A DNA stretch of 64,000 nt, from positions 1-64,000 of IMG/VR virus record IMGVR_UViG_3300012944_000001; one strand, given 5' to 3'. Below, piece by piece: positions 54,300 through 63,114 of the stretch; position 1 is the first letter of the stretch, and every line of letters begins with the position of its first letter. Both the position numbers and the translations under genes were made by a program. The notes beneath the pieces were generated by a model. It ran no database searches. It worked only from the letters and a program-made list of their open reading frames with translations, and was not told where the DNA came from. Origin of the DNA: a virus.

Positions 54300-54328
54300 T
54301 TGACAGAGACTAACAACTCTGTTAGTAT
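54300..54328 (+). promoter_or_regulatory. promoter for tRNA-Asn and the Y-RNA array
   Basis: TTGACA-N17-TAGTAT. Confidence 0.65.
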
Positions 54329-54364: not shown

Positions 54365-54436
54365 TCCTTGATAGCTCAATGGCAGAGCAGTCGACTGTTA
54401 ATCGACCGGTTGTTGGTTCGAATCCAGCTCAGGGAG
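54365..54436 (+). tRNA. tRNA-Asn(GTT)
   Basis: GTCGA-CT-GTT-AA-TCGAC. Confidence 0.92.
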
Positions 54437-54497
54437 CCTTAGCCCCTTTTCAAGCCTCTCGATGAAGCTCAAATGAGAAGGGCCAAAATTTAAATTT

Positions 54498-54619
54498 GTG
54501 ACGATGCGAAGAATAGAGTTACTTCGGTTAATTAGTGGTTCGATTCCATTCTCTGTAGTAAAACACAGATAGGCGAGTATAAAAACTCGTACATACTTTA
54601 TTCAAATTTTTCTAGTCAC
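54498..54619 (+). ncRNA. Y-RNA-like unit 1 (T-arm cargo)
   Basis: GTGAC/GTCAC terminal stem; GATGCG...TTACTTC...TTTCTA; AGTGG-TTCGATT-CCATT. Confidence 0.75.
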
Positions 54620-54625
54620 TTAAAC

Positions 54626-54718
54626 TTGATAGAAGGTTGGGGTAGCCTGCTAGCGGCTGTAATCGGGCGAAAACGTCCCTTGTAATACTGATACGAACGT
54701 TCACATCCCTTCTATCAA
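54626..54718 (+). ncRNA. unassigned structured RNA within the array
   Basis: 11-bp terminal stem TTGATAGAAGG/CCTTCTATCAA with internal hairpins. Confidence 0.5.
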
Positions 54719-54725
54719 CTAACTT

Positions 54726-54866
54726 GACAGCGATGCGCAGATAAGAGATACTTCACAGGGAACTCCGGGTCGTAGGTTCGAATCCTACTCTATCGACTCT
54801 TCGGTAGATAGCTCAGTGGTAGAGCAGGGGTATATAAAGAACTTTTATCGACTTTTTCTAGCTGTC
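54726..54866 (+). ncRNA. YrlA-type Y RNA, unit 2 (circularly permuted tRNA domain)
   Basis: GACAGC/GCTGTC stem; T arm GTAGG-TTCGAAT-CCTAC, closed acceptor hairpin, D arm TAGCTCAGTGGTAGAGC. Confidence 0.88.
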
Positions 54867-54874
54867 TTTATTTT

Positions 54875-54967
54875 TATGACCAATGCGTAGGCACGGGGTT
54901 ACTTCAAATTAATTGATAATTGACGGGCATAGCCCAGTAAACCTCAGCCGATTATTTCTAGGTCATA
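54875..54967 (+). ncRNA. Y-RNA-like unit 3
   Basis: TATGACC/GGTCATA stem; AATGCG...TTACTTC...TTTCTA. Confidence 0.75.
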
Positions 54968-54980
54968 TAACTTAATATTT

Positions 54981-55053
54981 CTACCCGATGCGACGCCGCC
55001 GGTTACTTCAACCCTTCGCAGAAAAAATCCGGCCGCACATTTTTCTAGGGTGG
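54981..55053 (+). ncRNA. Y-RNA-like unit 4 (minimal)
   Basis: CTACCC/GGGTGG stem; GATGCG...TTACTTC...TTTCTA. Confidence 0.75.
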
Positions 55054-55061
55054 ATCATTTT

Positions 55062-55169
55062 AGTTCCGATGCGTGGATTACTGGTTACTTCAATGCTAAT
55101 GAAAAGGTACGGTTCGAATCCGTTTAAGGCATGGCGCCCACACACCAGAAATCATTATTTCTAGGAACT
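55062..55169 (+). ncRNA. Y-RNA-like unit 5 (anticodon-like hairpin plus T arm)
   Basis: AGTTCC/GGAACT stem; GATGCG...TTACTTC...TTTCTA; ACGG-TTCGAAT-CCGT. Confidence 0.78.
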
Positions 55170-55179
55170 TATTAATCTT

Positions 55180-55220
55180 CCCCTTGGTTAGGCATAGCCT
55201 TACTTGAGGGGTTTATTTTT
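55180..55220 (+). terminator. terminator-like hairpin between the Y-RNA array and Ro60
   Basis: CCCCTTGGT...ACTTGAGGGG then TTTATTTTT. Confidence 0.6.
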
Positions 55221-55254
55221 ATCTACTTAACGTACCACAACATAGGAGGATACA

Positions 55255-56874
55255 ATGGGTAAGTTCAATAAGGTTAACAGCACAGGCGTTCAGTCACCTA
55301 TAAAGACTGTAGGAAAGATTATTAATCATGATGCTCGTGTAGCTTTTGCGCGGGATACCCAGTCTGAACTGTATTTGTTTGCAGTATCCAACTTTGTTGG
55401 TCAGGATACGTTCTATGAGAATGCTAAGGCCAGCGATGATCGCTTTGTTATCCTTTCTCAAAAGGCCGCTGTAGCAGATCGTGCCTGGTTTGGCTACTTC
55501 GTGAGCTGGCTTCGTAACGAGGCATTCATGCGTAGTGCTGCTGTTGTGGCGGCTGTTGAGGGTGCCAAGGCATTACACGCGGCTGAGTCGTTTGTAGGGG
55601 CTGAGAATGCCTCCTGGCCCCGTCATATAGTTAGTGCTGCTCAAGCACGAGCTGATGAGCCCGGTGAAGTATTAGGATACTATGAAGCTAAGTACGGTAA
55701 GAATTTCCCGGCTTGGTTAAAGAAGGGTGTTGCGGACGGCGCAAAGCGTCTCTATAATGAGTATTCTCTTCTTAAGTACGATACAGTTTCTCACGGTTAT
55801 CGTTTTTCTGATGTAATTCAGCTTACTCACCCTAAGCCTGATAATGAAATACAGGAACAACTATTTAAGTACGCGATGAATAGTCGATACAATAACACAG
55901 AGTTTGTTGGCCGAGAGAATCATCTGCCCATGATAGAGACTCGTAAGGCTATTATGGAAATGCCTGTTCGTAGTCGAAAGGCACTTATAGGTAAGGGCGG
56001 AACAGAGGTACAGAGCCTATTCAAGAATGCAGGAATGACGTGGGAAGCTCTGTCTGGCTGGCTTCAGGGTCCTATGGATGCTGCGGCTTGGGAAGCCGTT
56101 ATTCCTTCTATGGGATACATGGCGCTGCTTCGTAATCTTCGTAATTTCCAGAATGCTGGTATCCGTGCTAAGGTGCTGAAGGAAGTTCTTGGTAAGCTTG
56201 CTGATTTCGAGCAGGTTGCAAAGAGTAAGCAGTTCCCTTTCCGATTCCTTGCTGCTTACCAGGCAAATAAGGATAATCTACAGATCTCTGCCGCGCTAGA
56301 GAGTGCTTTGCAGGCTTCTTTGGCCAATGTCCCTTCCCTTAATGGGAATAGCTTGATTCTAGTTGATCGCTCTGGTAGCATGTTCCAGACTGGTGGAGGT
56401 GTCCAAGGACTCGATCGTGCAGACACGGCTGCTATTTTCGGTACCGCTCTGGCTATGCAAGCAGAAAAGGCTGATCTTGTGCAGTACGGTTCAGCATGGT
56501 ATGGTCAGGATAGTTCTTCCAAGGTAGTATCTTTCCGTAAGGGGAATTCTATTCTGCCGATGCTCAGTAAGTTTGAGAATCTTGGCGGAACAGACACCAC
56601 TGGAGCTATTAAGCGACACTTGACACCGAAGCATGACCGAGTTATTCTCATCACTGATGAGCAGTACAACGGCTATGGTGTCGATCCAGGAAGCATTGTT
56701 CCTGCTAAGATTCCGATGTACACTTGGAATCTTGGAGGATATCAAGCGGCTCACAGTGAGTCTGGTTCAAAGAAGCGTCACACCTTTGGCGGATTGACTG
56801 ATAAGGCATTTGTACAGATTCCTATGATTGAGGCTGGGCAGAATGCTGTATGGCCTTGGGAGGCTAAGAAGTGA
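55255..56874 (+). CDS. rsr: Ro60/Rsr TROVE-domain RNA-binding protein with vWA domain
   Basis: DTFYE, RADEPGE, KY, HPKP, TWE.L, MGYMALLRNLRN, FPFRF; MIDAS DRSGSM, GGT, ITDEQ. Confidence 0.93.
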   Translation: MGKFNKVNSTGVQSPIKTVGKIINHDARVAFARDTQSELYLFAVSNFVGQDTFYENAKASDDRFVILSQKAAVADRAWFGYFVSWLRNEAFMRSAAVVAAVEGAKALHAAESFVGAENASWPRHIVSAAQARADEPGEVLGYYEAKYGKNFPAWLKKGVADGAKRLYNEYSLLKYDTVSHGYRFSDVIQLTHPKPDNEIQEQLFKYAMNSRYNNTEFVGRENHLPMIETRKAIMEMPVRSRKALIGKGGTEVQSLFKNAGMTWEALSGWLQGPMDAAAWEAVIPSMGYMALLRNLRNFQNAGIRAKVLKEVLGKLADFEQVAKSKQFPFRFLAAYQANKDNLQISAALESALQASLANVPSLNGNSLILVDRSGSMFQTGGGVQGLDRADTAAIFGTALAMQAEKADLVQYGSAWYGQDSSSKVVSFRKGNSILPMLSKFENLGGTDTTGAIKRHLTPKHDRVILITDEQYNGYGVDPGSIVPAKIPMYTWNLGGYQAAHSESGSKKRHTFGGLTDKAFVQIPMIEAGQNAVWPWEAKK

Positions 56875-59990: not shown

Positions 59991-60069
59991 GGGTCTGTAA
60001 GGTTTCGTCTGAACTTAAAGCCGCACGTCGGAAACTTTCAGCACCCCGGTTCGATTCCGGGCAGATCCA
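59991..60069 (+). ncRNA. mini-tmRNA-like RNA (tRNA-like domain only)
   Basis: GGGTCTG/CAGATCC-A acceptor with G3:U70; stemless D-loop TAAGGTTTCG; T arm CCCGG-TTCGATT-CCGGG. Confidence 0.7.
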
Positions 60070-60073
60070 CTTT

Positions 60074-60535: not shown

Positions 60536-60623
60536 GGAAGTTCCAACCGATAGATGGCGCCGGTCGCAGTCTTGAAAACTGTTGGGTGTAATAGCCGTAG
60601 GGGTTCGACCCCCCTAGCTTCCG
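60536..60623 (+). tRNA. tRNA-Ser(TGA), atypical D arm
   Basis: GCAGT-CT-TGA-AA-ACTGT; long variable arm; G73. Confidence 0.82.
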
Positions 60624-60882: not shown

Positions 60883-60978
60883 CGTTAAGGAGATAACTAT
60901 GATTAAATGTTCAAGATGCAAAGCAAAGAATATAAAAGGTAGTCGTTGGTGTCATAGATGTGGCAAGGAGTTAAGTTA

Positions 60979-61293
60979 ATGTATTCGGTAACTGATGCTA
61001 CATTTCATGAAGTATTACACAACAATAAGTCTGTCATTGTAGATTTTTGGGCACCCTGGTGCGGTCCTTGTCGTCAAGTAGCACCTGTGCTAGACTCTTT
61101 ATCACAAGAGCATACAGATATTACTTTTGTCAAAATGGACATTGATACAAATCATATGACATCTAATAAGTATGAAATATTATCTGTTCCAACAATTGCA
61201 CTATTTATTAATGGTGATTTAGTAAAAACAGTAGTTGGAGCAAGACCGAAAGTAGCTCTTGAAAGAGAATTACTTTCTGCCCTATATCAATAG
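60979..61293 (+). CDS. trxA: thioredoxin
   Basis: VDFWAPWCGPC; AAGGAG RBS before ATG 60979. Confidence 0.95.
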   Translation: MYSVTDATFHEVLHNNKSVIVDFWAPWCGPCRQVAPVLDSLSQEHTDITFVKMDIDTNHMTSNKYEILSVPTIALFINGDLVKTVVGARPKVALERELLSALYQ

Positions 61294-61801: not shown

Positions 61802-62038
61802 GTGCGTCCATGGACTAAAGATGAAAGAGAAGCATATAAAGATTCGACCATGCATTATCACAAGTACGATCTCTATGGATATGTAGATGATCTTATTGAG
61901 ACTTGGCACACTTCTATGGGCCTAAATGTTTCTCTTTATAGTTTCCTAGGACTTTACGAAGGAGAAGTGTCAGACTGGGCCGGTAAGAATATCATTCCGG
62001 ATCGTATTGTAGTTATGTGGGAGGAAGGAGAATACTAA
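61802..62038 (+). CDS. hypothetical protein
   Basis: GAGGAGG RBS. Confidence 0.6.
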   Translation: MRPWTKDEREAYKDSTMHYHKYDLYGYVDDLIETWHTSMGLNVSLYSFLGLYEGEVSDWAGKNIIPDRIVVMWEEGEY

Positions 62039-63114
62039 TGCTTATACATGATTTACTTAACATCCGGGATTTAGATACTATGCTTACGGAAGGTTATGTA
62101 AGATTTGGTATTCATCCCATTTTTCCAAATGTTCGTATATTTAACTACACTGAAAAGGCTCAATTCGCCAACGAGTGGAATGACATAACTCGACAATGCC
62201 GTGGTCTTATAGTTGATTGGGATACCAAAGAAGTACTTGCGCGCCCTTTTGACAAGTTCATGAATTATGGTCAAGATCAGGCAGACGTAATTCTTGCTGG
62301 CTATTCAGTTAAGGTATATGACAAGTTAGACGGATCTCTGGGAATTCTATTTCGTCGTCCTGATGGTTTTTGGGAAATAGCTACAAGAGGTTCCTTTCAA
62401 TCAGACCAGGCGTCGCATGCCACAATACTTCTTCGTCAAAAGTACAGTTCGTTTTTACTGGGATTAAATAGTGATCTTACATATATGTTTGAAATCATCT
62501 ATCCACAAAACCGTATCGTATTGGATTACGGAGACAAAGATTCCCTGGTATTACTTGGTGCCAGAAGTATTGACGAAGGCTCTACGTACGGGCCTGAGAG
62601 CCTCCCAGATTGGCACTGGGACCGAACTACTACCTTCCCTTACAAGACTCTCAGTGAGGCGCTGAAGGCCCCTCCTAGACCTAATGCAGAGGGTTACGTG
62701 GTCTACTTCCCGGAGTTGGACCACAGAGTCAAGATCAAGCAGGATGATTACATAGCGATGCACAAGATCGTTACGGGCTTGACAGAGCGTCGTATCTGGG
62801 AGAACATGAAGGAAGGTAAAACTCTAGAAGATCTTGTAAATATTATTCCAGACGAATGGCATGATTGGCTCCAAGAAACGTATACTAAGATCAAGAAAAA
62901 TTATTGGGCTGAATGGAGTACTATTCTTGAGGAGTTTAATACACATACCATGTGGTTGGACGTGGCTAATTATCAAAAATGGTCCCGAAAAGATTTTGCT
63001 TTGCGAGTTAAAGACTCAAGATATAAAGGCTTTATGTTTTTAATGTTGGATAATAACAACGTAACTGACAAGGTATGGCAATTGGTTCGACCACCCGCTG
63101 AGTCATTACTGTAA
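62038..63114 (+). CDS. T4 Rnl1-like RNA ligase
   Basis: CRGLI, RPFDKFMN, motif I KLDGSLG, ATRGSF, FEII, EGYV, VKIK. Confidence 0.92.
   Translation: MLIHDLLNIRDLDTMLTEGYVRFGIHPIFPNVRIFNYTEKAQFANEWNDITRQCRGLIVDWDTKEVLARPFDKFMNYGQDQADVILAGYSVKVYDKLDGSLGILFRRPDGFWEIATRGSFQSDQASHATILLRQKYSSFLLGLNSDLTYMFEIIYPQNRIVLDYGDKDSLVLLGARSIDEGSTYGPESLPDWHWDRTTTFPYKTLSEALKAPPRPNAEGYVVYFPELDHRVKIKQDDYIAMHKIVTGLTERRIWENMKEGKTLEDLVNIIPDEWHDWLQETYTKIKKNYWAEWSTILEEFNTHTMWLDVANYQKWSRKDFALRVKDSRYKGFMFLMLDNNNVTDKVWQLVRPPAESLL

What the first reader, a model, noticed from the sequence alone, without database searches (positions are those of the whole stretch)
54498..56874. Tandem array of five Y-RNA-like genes with one scaffold and different cargos, directly upstream of a phage Ro60
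Seen: five units (54498-54619, 54726-54866, 54875-54967, 54981-55053, 55062-55169; 73-141 nt) share the layout [5-7 bp stem]-RATGCG-N2-[helix 2]-WTACTTC-[variable cargo]-[helix 2']-TTTCTA-[stem']. The terminal stems differ in sequence but all pair (GTGAC/GTCAC, GACAGC/GCTGTC, TATGACC/GGTCATA, CTACCC/GGGTGG, AGTTCC/GGAACT). Helix 2 also covaries (GAATAGAG/CTTTATTC, GATAAGAG/CTTTTATC, CCGG/CCGG, CTGG/CCAG), which indicates selection on RNA structure. A TTGACA-N17-TAGTAT promoter (54300) and tRNA-Asn come before the array, and the Ro60/TROVE gene follows it. Established: bacterial Ro60 (Rsr) binds a bulged terminal helix of Y RNAs, whose distal module recruits or mimics partners (PNPase in Deinococcus, the tRNA-like domain of YrlA); characterised loci have one or two Y RNAs. 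Inference: a modular phage RNP system in which one Ro60 is loaded with at least five different RNA adaptors or decoys, possibly for tRNA protection, repair or anti-defence.
Basis: partly seen in the sequence, partly recalled or inferred. Interest (0 to 1): 0.92.

Follow-up and report, generated by a model that had tools for sequence, protein, structure and literature searches.

The report
Five Y RNAs beside phage Ro60
A 112-kb actinophage carries five small RNA genes in a row that share one docking "handle" but differ in their inner parts, just upstream of its Ro60 ring-protein gene; this is a real, enlarged version of the known Ro60/Y-RNA partnership, not a new kind of system.

Summary
Observation confirmed. 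Five units lie at the stated coordinates. A covariance model built only from unit-4 orthologues finds exactly these five in the 64-kb window (E 3e-14 to 1e-6) and none elsewhere in the 111,914-bp phage genome. Both scaffold helices covary strongly.

The same array of four or five units, in the same order, lies between tRNA-Asn and Ro60 in Streptomyces phages BRock, Alone3, LuckySocke, GiJojo and pSt2308 and in about ten IMG/VR contigs. Every model hit lies beside a Ro60 gene on its strand.

- Unit 2 is a full YrlA-type permuted tRNA.
- Units 1 and 5 keep a T arm.
- Units 3 and 4 are simple hairpins.
- Cargos turn over between phages while the handle stays.

What lowers novelty:
- YrlA RNAs beside phage Ro60 were reported in 2014.
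- Eighty Streptomyces, Kitasatospora and Nonomuraea chromosomal rsr loci carry two or three units with the same scaffold.
- Other actinophages carry up to six.

So this is a phage-expanded member of the Y RNA kind. Ro60 binding and function remain untested. This scan has also noted analogous handle-sharing RNA arrays beside Ro60-like genes in over 200 other genomes; I did not check those notes.

The parts
54300..54328 (+). Sigma-70-like promoter (TTGACA-17-TAGTAT, TG-extended) between tRNA-Trp and tRNA-Asn; the likely start of the tRNA-Asn plus Y-RNA transcription unit
   Evidence: 10 of 12 matches. A TTGACA-N16-18-TAnnnT site lies in the same interval in BRock, Alone3, GiJojo, pSt2308 and L012. 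Promoter function is inferred.
54365..54438 (+). tRNA-Asn(GUU), immediately upstream of the array in all relatives
   Evidence: ARAGORN; Rfam tRNA 65.8 bits; synteny.
54498..54619 (+). Unit 1 (122 nt): handle plus a T-arm-like hairpin (GGTTCGATTCC) and two further hairpins
   Evidence: 41.1 bits, E 4.5e-08; 62.4 bits. Orthologues are present in Alone3, GiJojo, pSt2308, L012, L030 and L040, but the cargo is only partly alignable. BRock lacks this unit.
54726..54866 (+). Unit 2 (141 nt): handle plus a complete YrlA-type circularly permuted tRNA-like domain (anticodon-stem-like helix, T arm, closed acceptor hairpin, D arm)
   Evidence: Rfam YrlA 37.7 bits, E 2e-06, below the gathering score of 69. 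Twelve orthologues give 37 consensus pairs, 20 of them with compensatory change.
54875..54967 (+). Unit 3 (93 nt): handle plus a small AU hairpin and a GC hairpin (GGGC-AUA-GCCC); no tRNA-like arm in this phage
   Evidence: (58.3 bits). Orthologues in L011, L034 and L040 carry a T-arm-like GGTTCGATTCC instead, so the cargo has been replaced.
54980..55054 (+). Unit 4 (75 nt): handle closing a short, largely unstructured loop; the YrlB-like short form
   Evidence: 65.3 bits. In 12 orthologues helix 2 covaries (5 of 13 pairs compensatory). It matches the roughly 75-nt middle unit of Streptomyces rsr loci.
55062..55169 (+). Unit 5 (108 nt): handle plus a 'V' stem-loop and a T arm; the acceptor hairpin and D arm present in BRock, Alone3, GiJojo, pSt2308 and L011 are missing here
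   Evidence: (43.7 bits). The T arm covaries. L031 and L034 share the short form.
55180..55222 (+). Terminator-like hairpin (CCCCUUGG.../...UUGAGGGG) followed by a U-rich tract, between the array and the Ro60 ribosome-binding site
   Evidence: -15.9 kcal/mol. A hairpin plus U tract with a different sequence sits at the same place in BRock, Alone3, GiJojo, pSt2308, L011 and L012. The simple terminator scan did not call it.
55255..56874 (+). Phage Ro60 (Rsr) gene, 539 aa: TROVE ring plus a vWA domain with a DxSxS MIDAS motif
   Evidence: Pfam TROVE 1.3e-18. Near-full-length match (two stretches, residues 25-474) to Thermus phage phiLo Ro60 structures 9KOP and 9L5Y, E 4e-21, with 'DRSGS' aligned to 'DVSGS'. 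It is 59-68% identical to BRock-group Ro60 proteins and 47-51% identical to Streptomyces Rsr.

Best explanation
These are five paralogous Y RNA genes (YrlA/YrlB type) that serve the phage's own Ro60.

Shown: the five units share a covarying two-helix handle (terminal stem, GAUGCGNAG / UUUCUAG internal loop, helix 2, UACUUC) and carry different inner modules. The handle occurs only beside Ro60 genes and on their strand. A promoter-like site, tRNA-Asn, the array and a terminator-like hairpin are conserved as one block.

Inferred: the block is transcribed with tRNA-Asn as one precursor and cut into 73-141-nt RNAs by the host's tRNA-processing nucleases. Each RNA docks by its handle on the outside of the Ro60 ring. 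Its inner module (a full tRNA mimic in unit 2, T-arm remnants in units 1 and 5, plain hairpins in units 3 and 4) then gates the ring or tethers it to different partners, such as host PNPase or other tRNA-binding enzymes. This would adapt RNA surveillance, decay or repair to infection. The array is an expansion of the two- or three-unit array found at host Streptomyces rsr loci.
For: - Units and handle.
- Covariation.
- Exclusive linkage to Ro60 on the same strand: 63 R1 hits, all in Ro60 loci, and none in 14 pattern-hit loci without Ro60; 97 R2 hits in 27 phage sources; 187 R2 hits in 80 bacterial rsr loci, all within about 500 nt upstream. The phage genome has none outside the array.
- The handle's 3' motif is lineage-specific but uniform within a genome: UUUCUAG in the BRock group, UUGAYCUC in Streptomyces and related phages, and other motifs in Satis, Kela and Atuin. 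This fits one genome-specific binding partner.
- The unit 2 fold is the YrlA architecture.
- The conserved promoter-like site and terminator-like hairpin bracket tRNA-Asn plus the array.
- Precedents: M. smegmatis YrlA and YrlB are cut from one precursor upstream of rsr; D. radiodurans Yrn2, tRNA-Asp and Yrn1 are polycistronic; 22 phages have YrlA near Ro60 (PMC4201824). Thermus phage phiLo Ro60 binds two phage Y-like RNAs and, with host PNPase, forms ternary complexes in gel-shift assays (PMC12135203).
- An Rnl1-type RNA ligase lies in the same tRNA cluster.
Against: - No expression, end-mapping or binding data exist for any of these RNAs.
- The published GNCGAAN0-1G motif is not met strictly in any unit; the units have UGCGNAG or UGCGNNG.
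- Rfam YrlA is below the gathering score (37.7 against 69) and matches unit 2 only. Rfam Y_RNA gave no hit at E up to 10.
- Single-sequence folds are only weakly better than shuffles (z -0.7 to -2.3).
- Part of the covariation statistics comes from a model-fitted alignment.
- The partners of the cargos are unknown.
Confidence: 0.78

Rival explanations
1. The shared handle is a processing or stability signal, or the binding site of some other protein, rather than a Ro60 docking site. On this reading the cargos are released or act independently, and the linkage to Ro60 reflects only co-regulation.
For: The strict Ro60-contact motif GNCGAA is not matched. The units sit in a tRNA cluster with 8-13-nt AU-rich spacers like tRNA precursors. 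The UACUUC motif is invariant across all lineages while the presumed Ro60-side 3' motif varies.
Against: In every locus examined the handle travels with a Ro60 gene on the same strand, across phages and bacteria whose Ro60 proteins are only 33-68% identical to this one. Its 3' motif changes with the Ro60 lineage. Characterised relatives are Rsr-bound (PMC4201824).
Confidence: 0.1
2. The array is a cis-acting structured leader of the Ro60 mRNA, for example autoregulatory Ro60 binding sites, and not a set of separate RNAs.
For: It lies directly upstream on the same strand, and no separate promoter for Ro60 has been proven. A weak TTAACG-18-TACAAT site at 55227 is the only candidate.
Against: A conserved terminator-like hairpin with a U tract separates the array from the Ro60 ribosome-binding site. 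In Arthrobacter phage Atuin four of six units lie downstream of Ro60, interspersed with tRNAs. Homologous bacterial RNAs are processed to stable species (PMC4201824).
Confidence: 0.05
3. The tRNA-like units are decoys for host tRNA-targeting defences (anticodon nucleases and the like), with Ro60 only stabilising them.
For: Three of the five units carry tRNA parts. The phage encodes 28 tRNAs, a mini-tmRNA and an Rnl1 ligase nearby. Some 'V' loops are 7 nt with a U33-like base.
Against: Unit 2 has no anticodon loop. The anticodon-like loops of units 3 and 5 are not conserved among orthologues. Host chromosomes, which need no such decoy, carry the same RNAs. Units 3 and 4 have no tRNA part.
Confidence: 0.07

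Closest known systems
YrlA / YrlB Y RNAs of Salmonella Typhimurium and Mycobacterium smegmatis, and YrlA of mycobacteriophages (Rfam RF02553; Chen et al. 2014, PMC4201824)
   Same: They are encoded just upstream of Ro60 on the same strand. The terminal stem is formed by the 5' and 3' ends. One RNA carries a permuted tRNA-like domain (T arm, closed acceptor, D arm, optional V stem-loop) and another is a short hairpin or T-arm form. They are cut from one precursor. ACUUC is present in the M. smegmatis YrlA and YrlB probe targets.
   Different: There are five paralogues instead of two. The handle motifs are GAUGCGNAG / UUUCUAG rather than GNCGAAN0-1G. The Rfam score is below the gathering score. 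No binding data exist.
Chromosomal rsr loci of Streptomyces, Kitasatospora and Nonomuraea (found here)
   Same: They have the same scaffold plan (stem, GGUGCG-NAGG, helix 2, UACUUC, cargo, helix 2', 3' motif, stem') in tandem within about 500 nt upstream of a Ro60 that is 47-51% identical. The order is about 140 / 75 / 140 nt, which parallels phage units 2, 4 and 5.
   Different: They have two or three units, GGUGCG / UUGAYCUC motifs and high GC. The phage adds units 1 and 3 and has truncated unit 5.
Deinococcus radiodurans Yrn1 / Yrn2 with Rsr and PNPase
   Same: Several small RNAs lie upstream of rsr and are made as a polycistronic precursor with a tRNA gene. The design is modular: a Ro60-binding stem plus an effector module that includes a T arm.
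   Different: The tRNA-like module has an independent origin and both strands of the metazoan-type Ro site are retained there. PNPase tethering is shown there and only inferred here.
Thermus phage phiLo Ro60 with Yrl1 and Yrl2 (PMC12135203; PDB 9KOP, 9L5Y)
   Same: A phage-encoded Ro60 has phage-encoded Y-like RNAs upstream. This protein matches it by sequence (E 4e-21).
   Different: It has two RNAs, defined by a CGAA motif, and the host lineage is unrelated. Binding, and PNPase-containing complexes in gel shifts, were shown there.
Vertebrate Y RNAs (Y1, Y3, Y4, Y5)
   Same: They form a family of up to four paralogues that share the Ro60-binding stem and differ in the loop that recruits partners.
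   Different: They have no tRNA-like module, are separate Pol III genes, and gave no detectable sequence or covariance-model similarity (no RF00019 hit).

Membership tests
Bacterial/phage Y RNA (Chen et al. 2014 criteria) | Encoded within a few kb of a Ro60/TROVE gene, on the same strand | tested here: met
   The units lie 85-757 nt upstream of the TROVE CDS on the + strand. The same holds for all 97 phage and 187 bacterial model hits.
Bacterial/phage Y RNA (Chen et al. 2014 criteria) | The 5' and 3' ends pair into a stem that carries the Ro60 site, with a large internal loop or module beyond it | tested here: met
   Stem 1 and helix 2 covary: 15 of 15 pairs have compensatory change and 91.7% of cells pair. 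Cognate strands pair far better than non-cognate ones.
Bacterial/phage Y RNA (Chen et al. 2014 criteria) | GNCGAAN0-1G motif near the 5' end | tested here: not met
   No unit matches the strict motif. The units have UGCGAAG, UGCGCAG, UGCGUAG, UGCGACG and UGCGUGG at the equivalent place, so this is a near variant only.
Bacterial/phage Y RNA (Chen et al. 2014 criteria) | At least one RNA per genome has a tRNA-like domain (T and D arms) | tested here: met
   Unit 2 has a T arm, a closed acceptor hairpin and a D arm, all supported by covariation in 12 orthologues.
Bacterial/phage Y RNA (Chen et al. 2014 criteria) | Bound by, and stabilised by, Ro60 in vivo | not testable with these tools
   This needs RIP, Northern blots or EMSA.
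Rfam YrlA (RF02553) | Covariance-model score at or above the gathering score (69 bits) | tested here: not met
   Unit 2 scores 37.7 bits (E 2e-06 over 1.1 kb); the other units give no hit. Streptomyces chromosomal rsr-linked RNAs also score only 37-43 bits, so the threshold excludes actinobacterial relatives generally.
Ro60 / Rsr protein | TROVE (HEAT-repeat ring) domain followed by a vWA domain with a MIDAS motif | tested here: met
   Pfam TROVE 1.3e-18, with VWA_2 sub-threshold. The protein aligns to phiLo Ro60 structures, with DRSGS aligned to the MIDAS DVSGS.

The most novel reading that the evidence does not exclude
Actinophages use the Ro60 handle as a plug-in socket. By duplicating units and swapping cargos (five here, six in Atuin and in one IMG/VR phage), a single phage Ro60 ring would be re-targeted to several different host partners or RNA substrates during infection. 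Together with the phage tRNA set and Rnl1 ligase, this would form a programmable RNA-surveillance or counter-defence particle with no described bacterial equivalent.
Probability: 0.2. Interest if true: 0.75.

Novelty: new member of a known kind. Interest (0 to 1): 0.45.

Why it matters
What bacterial Y RNA effector modules, especially the tRNA mimic, actually do is still open.

This locus and its relatives give a natural series: one handle, five different modules, and frequent module replacement between closely related phages. Several of those phages (BRock, Alone3, LuckySocke, GiJojo, pSt2308) are cultured and virulent on Streptomyces, so unit deletions, Ro60 pull-downs and partner identification are practical.

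The comparison also shows three further things:
- Streptomyces rsr loci routinely carry two or three handle-sharing Y RNAs.
- Some phage 'tRNA' annotations are really Y RNA modules.
- Rfam's YrlA threshold misses the actinobacterial and actinophage branch.

Tried and rejected
- Rfam at gathering score found only tRNAs in the window. No Y_RNA (RF00019) hit appeared at E up to 10.
- Megablast of the locus against GenBank phages found nothing. Relatives were reached through the protein instead.
- The exact pattern GATGCG..TTACTTC..TTTCTAG hit 25 IMG/VR stretches. Fourteen lack a Ro60 gene in the locus; none of these has an R1 hit and none a convincing unit, though the loose scan returned weak stem hits in seven. 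I treat them as chance or coding matches.
- A loose regex on GC-rich bacterial loci gave false positives inside genes, so I relied on the covariance model instead.
- I first equated Rfam's 'AUGCuu' with the GAUGCG loop. Rfam alignments consistently place it on UACUU, and the Rfam outer stem on helix 2, so I dropped that mapping.
- The idea that the cargos of units 3 and 5 mimic anticodon arms of tRNA-Ile or tRNA-Ser: the unit 5 stem covaries but its loop sequence is not conserved, and the unit 3 hairpin is absent from orthologues. I did not adopt it.
- MAFFT/RNAalifold on the cargos of units 1 and 3 gave no common fold because the cargos differ between phages.
- Two Wolin-lab reviews (PMC10870794, PMC6047535) and the supplements of Chen 2014 were not held. 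I therefore could not check whether multi-unit actinobacterial arrays are tabulated there.
Full report
**What is there.** The window is the first 64 kb of a complete 111,914-bp virus record with direct terminal repeats. GC content is about 43%. A cluster of 28 tRNA genes spans 49.7-61.6 kb. Within that cluster lies a 539-aa TROVE protein at 55255-56874 (Pfam 1.3e-18). It matches the solved Ro60 of Thermus phage phiLo over most of its length (residues 25-474), and its vWA MIDAS motif aligns.

Shuffled windows give 0.06 hits on average.

**Is the scaffold real?**
- Within the window, each unit's 5' stem strand and helix-2 strand pair much better with their own 3' partners than with those of other units.
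- A covariance model built only from 12 orthologues of unit 4 (A1 and R1) finds all five window units (E 3e-14 to 1e-6) and nothing else on either strand up to E=10.
- The whole-genome search finds four of the five and nothing outside the array; its first-look filter dropped unit 2.
- Across 45 sources R1 gave 63 hits. On their alignment 91.7% of cells pair, against 60% in shuffles and about 40% in slid controls, and all 15 pairs show compensatory changes. That alignment is fitted to the model. The independent MAFFT alignment of unit-4 orthologues shows the same trend.

**Relatives.** The Ro60 protein is 59-61% identical to those of Streptomyces phages BRock, Alone3, LuckySocke, GiJojo and pSt2308, and up to 68% identical to IMG/VR contigs. 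All of these have the block tRNA-Trp, promoter-like site, tRNA-Asn, four or five units in the same order, hairpin plus U tract, Ro60. BRock lacks unit 1.

None of the units is annotated as an RNA gene in those records. Unit 5 is instead overlapped by 'tRNA-Ser(gct)' in Alone3 and LuckySocke and by 'tRNA-Arg(cct)' in GiJojo.

**Anatomy of the cargos.**
- Unit 2: 12 orthologues give a 37-pair consensus, with 20 pairs compensatory. It consists of the handle, a 5-bp junction helix, a T arm, a closed acceptor hairpin and a D arm, which is the YrlA permuted-tRNA design. Rfam YrlA matches it at 37.7 bits, E 2e-06, below the gathering score of 69.
- Unit 5: it has a covarying 'V' stem-loop and T arm. 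The acceptor hairpin and D arm present in five relatives are missing in this phage.
- Unit 1: it keeps a T-arm-like hairpin plus two further hairpins.
- Units 3 and 4: these are simple. Unit 4 resembles the short YrlB-type form.
- Turnover: unit 3 carries a T-arm-like element in L011, L034 and L040 but not here, and unit 1 cargos differ between phages. Cargos are therefore replaced while the handle is kept.

**Linkage to Ro60.** All 63 R1 hits and all 97 hits of the broader model R2 lie in Ro60-bearing loci on the Ro60 strand. The 14 exact-pattern hits without a Ro60 gene gave no model hit. Units per locus range from two to six; Atuin and L022 have six.

Eighty Streptomyces, Kitasatospora and Nonomuraea chromosomal rsr loci have Ro60 proteins 47-51% identical to this one. 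They carry 187 R2 hits, all on the rsr strand within about 500 nt upstream. There are two or three per locus, typically about 140 / 75 / 140 nt, with the scaffold GGUGCG...UACUUC...UUGAYCUC.

The 3' handle motif is uniform within a genome but differs between Ro60 lineages. That pattern is what one expects if the handle is read by that genome's own Ro60. This last step is inference.

**Comparison with the literature.** Chen et al. 2014 (PMC4201824) found YrlA-like RNAs near Ro60 in 254 bacteria and 22 phages. They found at least two Y RNAs in each of three species studied. They also showed precursor processing of M. smegmatis YrlA and YrlB, and a polycistronic Yrn2, tRNA-Asp and Yrn1 transcript in Deinococcus. 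Their M. smegmatis probes imply ACUUC in YrlA and YrlB.

A 2025 paper shows that a Thermus phage Ro60 binds two phage Y-like RNAs and, with host PNPase, forms ternary complexes in gel-shift assays (PMC12135203). I found no paper describing arrays in BRock-like phages or in Streptomyces, but two key reviews and the 2014 supplements were not available to me.

**Mechanism.** Shown: the handle, its covariation, the cargo diversity, the exclusive synteny with Ro60, and the conserved promoter-like and terminator-like elements that bracket tRNA-Asn plus the array.

Inferred:
- co-transcription with tRNA-Asn and processing by tRNA nucleases;
- docking of each RNA on Ro60 through the handle;
- cargo-specific tethering or gating, with PNPase or tRNA-binding enzymes as candidate partners.

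An Rnl1-type RNA ligase at 62017-63114 and a mini-tmRNA make an RNA repair or quality-control context plausible. This is context only, not evidence of function.

**Membership.** Location, terminal stem and tRNA-like domain are met. The strict GNCGAAN0-1G motif and the Rfam gathering score are not met. Host rsr-linked RNAs fail the Rfam threshold in the same way. Ro60 binding cannot be tested here. I therefore call these Y RNAs of the YrlA/YrlB kind in a divergent actinophage branch.

**Verdict.** Novelty is moderate: this is a larger, phage-specific member of a known kind. Its parent form, a two- or three-unit array, is common in the host genus, and its function is untested. This scan has also logged analogous handle-sharing RNA arrays beside Ro60-like genes in more than 200 other genomes. 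I did not check those notes.

Noticed in passing
window 54627-54717 (+): A structured element of about 90 nt, closed by a 10-bp stem (UGAUAGAAGG / CCUUCUAUCA), sits between units 1 and 2. It has no Y handle and no Rfam hit. It is 88% identical at the same position in one IMG/VR phage (L012/L047) and absent from BRock, Alone3 and GiJojo. Its function is unknown.
   Followed up: partly
window 54446-54483 (+): A hairpin between tRNA-Asn and unit 1 matches the Rfam abiF RNA motif at 32.6 bits (gathering score 37). It is unique in the window and absent from L012 and Alone3, where unit 1 abuts tRNA-Asn.
   Followed up: partly
window 54724-54752 (+); same place in 11 orthologous loci: The 5' edge of unit 2 reads TTGACA(G/A)C in all 12 orthologues, with GATACT 17 nt downstream in 11 of them. 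This is a sigma-70-like promoter (10 of 12 matches) embedded in the handle. Unit 2's terminal stem is nearly invariant between phages, unlike the other units' stems. It may have a second function as an internal promoter.
   Followed up: partly
window 55229-55238 (+); BRock, Alone3, GiJojo, pSt2308, L011, L012: A conserved ACGTACCAC motif lies about 10-15 nt upstream of the Ro60 ribosome-binding site, after the terminator-like hairpin, in all relatives. It could be a phage promoter or leader signal for Ro60.
   Followed up: no
L002:2774-2847, L010:1274-1347, L003:1269-1343: The GenBank features 'tRNA-Ser(gct)' (Alone3, LuckySocke) and 'tRNA-Arg(cct)' (GiJojo) lie inside unit 5 of the Y RNA array. 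They are probably mis-called tRNAs; Rfam tRNA scores only 29.5 bits, just at threshold.
   Followed up: partly
L054-L133 (80 Streptomyces, Kitasatospora and Nonomuraea rsr loci), about 2000-2500: Chromosomal rsr genes are preceded by two or three tandem handle-sharing Y-like RNAs (about 140 / 75 / 140 nt). Rfam YrlA scores them at only 37-43 bits, below its gathering score.
   Followed up: partly
L005 (Arthrobacter phage Atuin) 945-1364 and 3247-3830; L022 617-1673: These loci have six-unit sets. In Atuin two units lie upstream and four downstream of Ro60, interleaved with tRNA genes.
   Followed up: no
L007:1307-1393 (Gordonia phage Neville): A third Y-like unit overlaps the annotated start of the Ro-like CDS (1342), so that start codon is probably called too far upstream.
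   Followed up: no
window 62017-63114 (+), 60958-61293 (+): An Rnl1-type RNA ligase (PF09511, 1.7e-14) and a thioredoxin (4e-30) are embedded in the same tRNA cluster. In Streptomyces phage Kela an RNA ligase gene lies directly upstream of Ro60.
   Followed up: partly
window 59991-60072 (+), 60536-60622 (+): A mini-tmRNA-like gene scores 43.8 bits against Rfam tmRNA (gathering score 47). There is also a weak tRNA-Sec-like match (30.6 bits) that ARAGORN did not call.
   Followed up: no
L001:5079-5242, L002:4967-5199: Sub-threshold manA RNA motif hits (49.7 and 47.8 bits; gathering score 55.2) lie between the two tRNA-Lys genes of BRock and Alone3. The window has no counterpart, because its tRNA-Lys genes are adjacent.
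   Followed up: no
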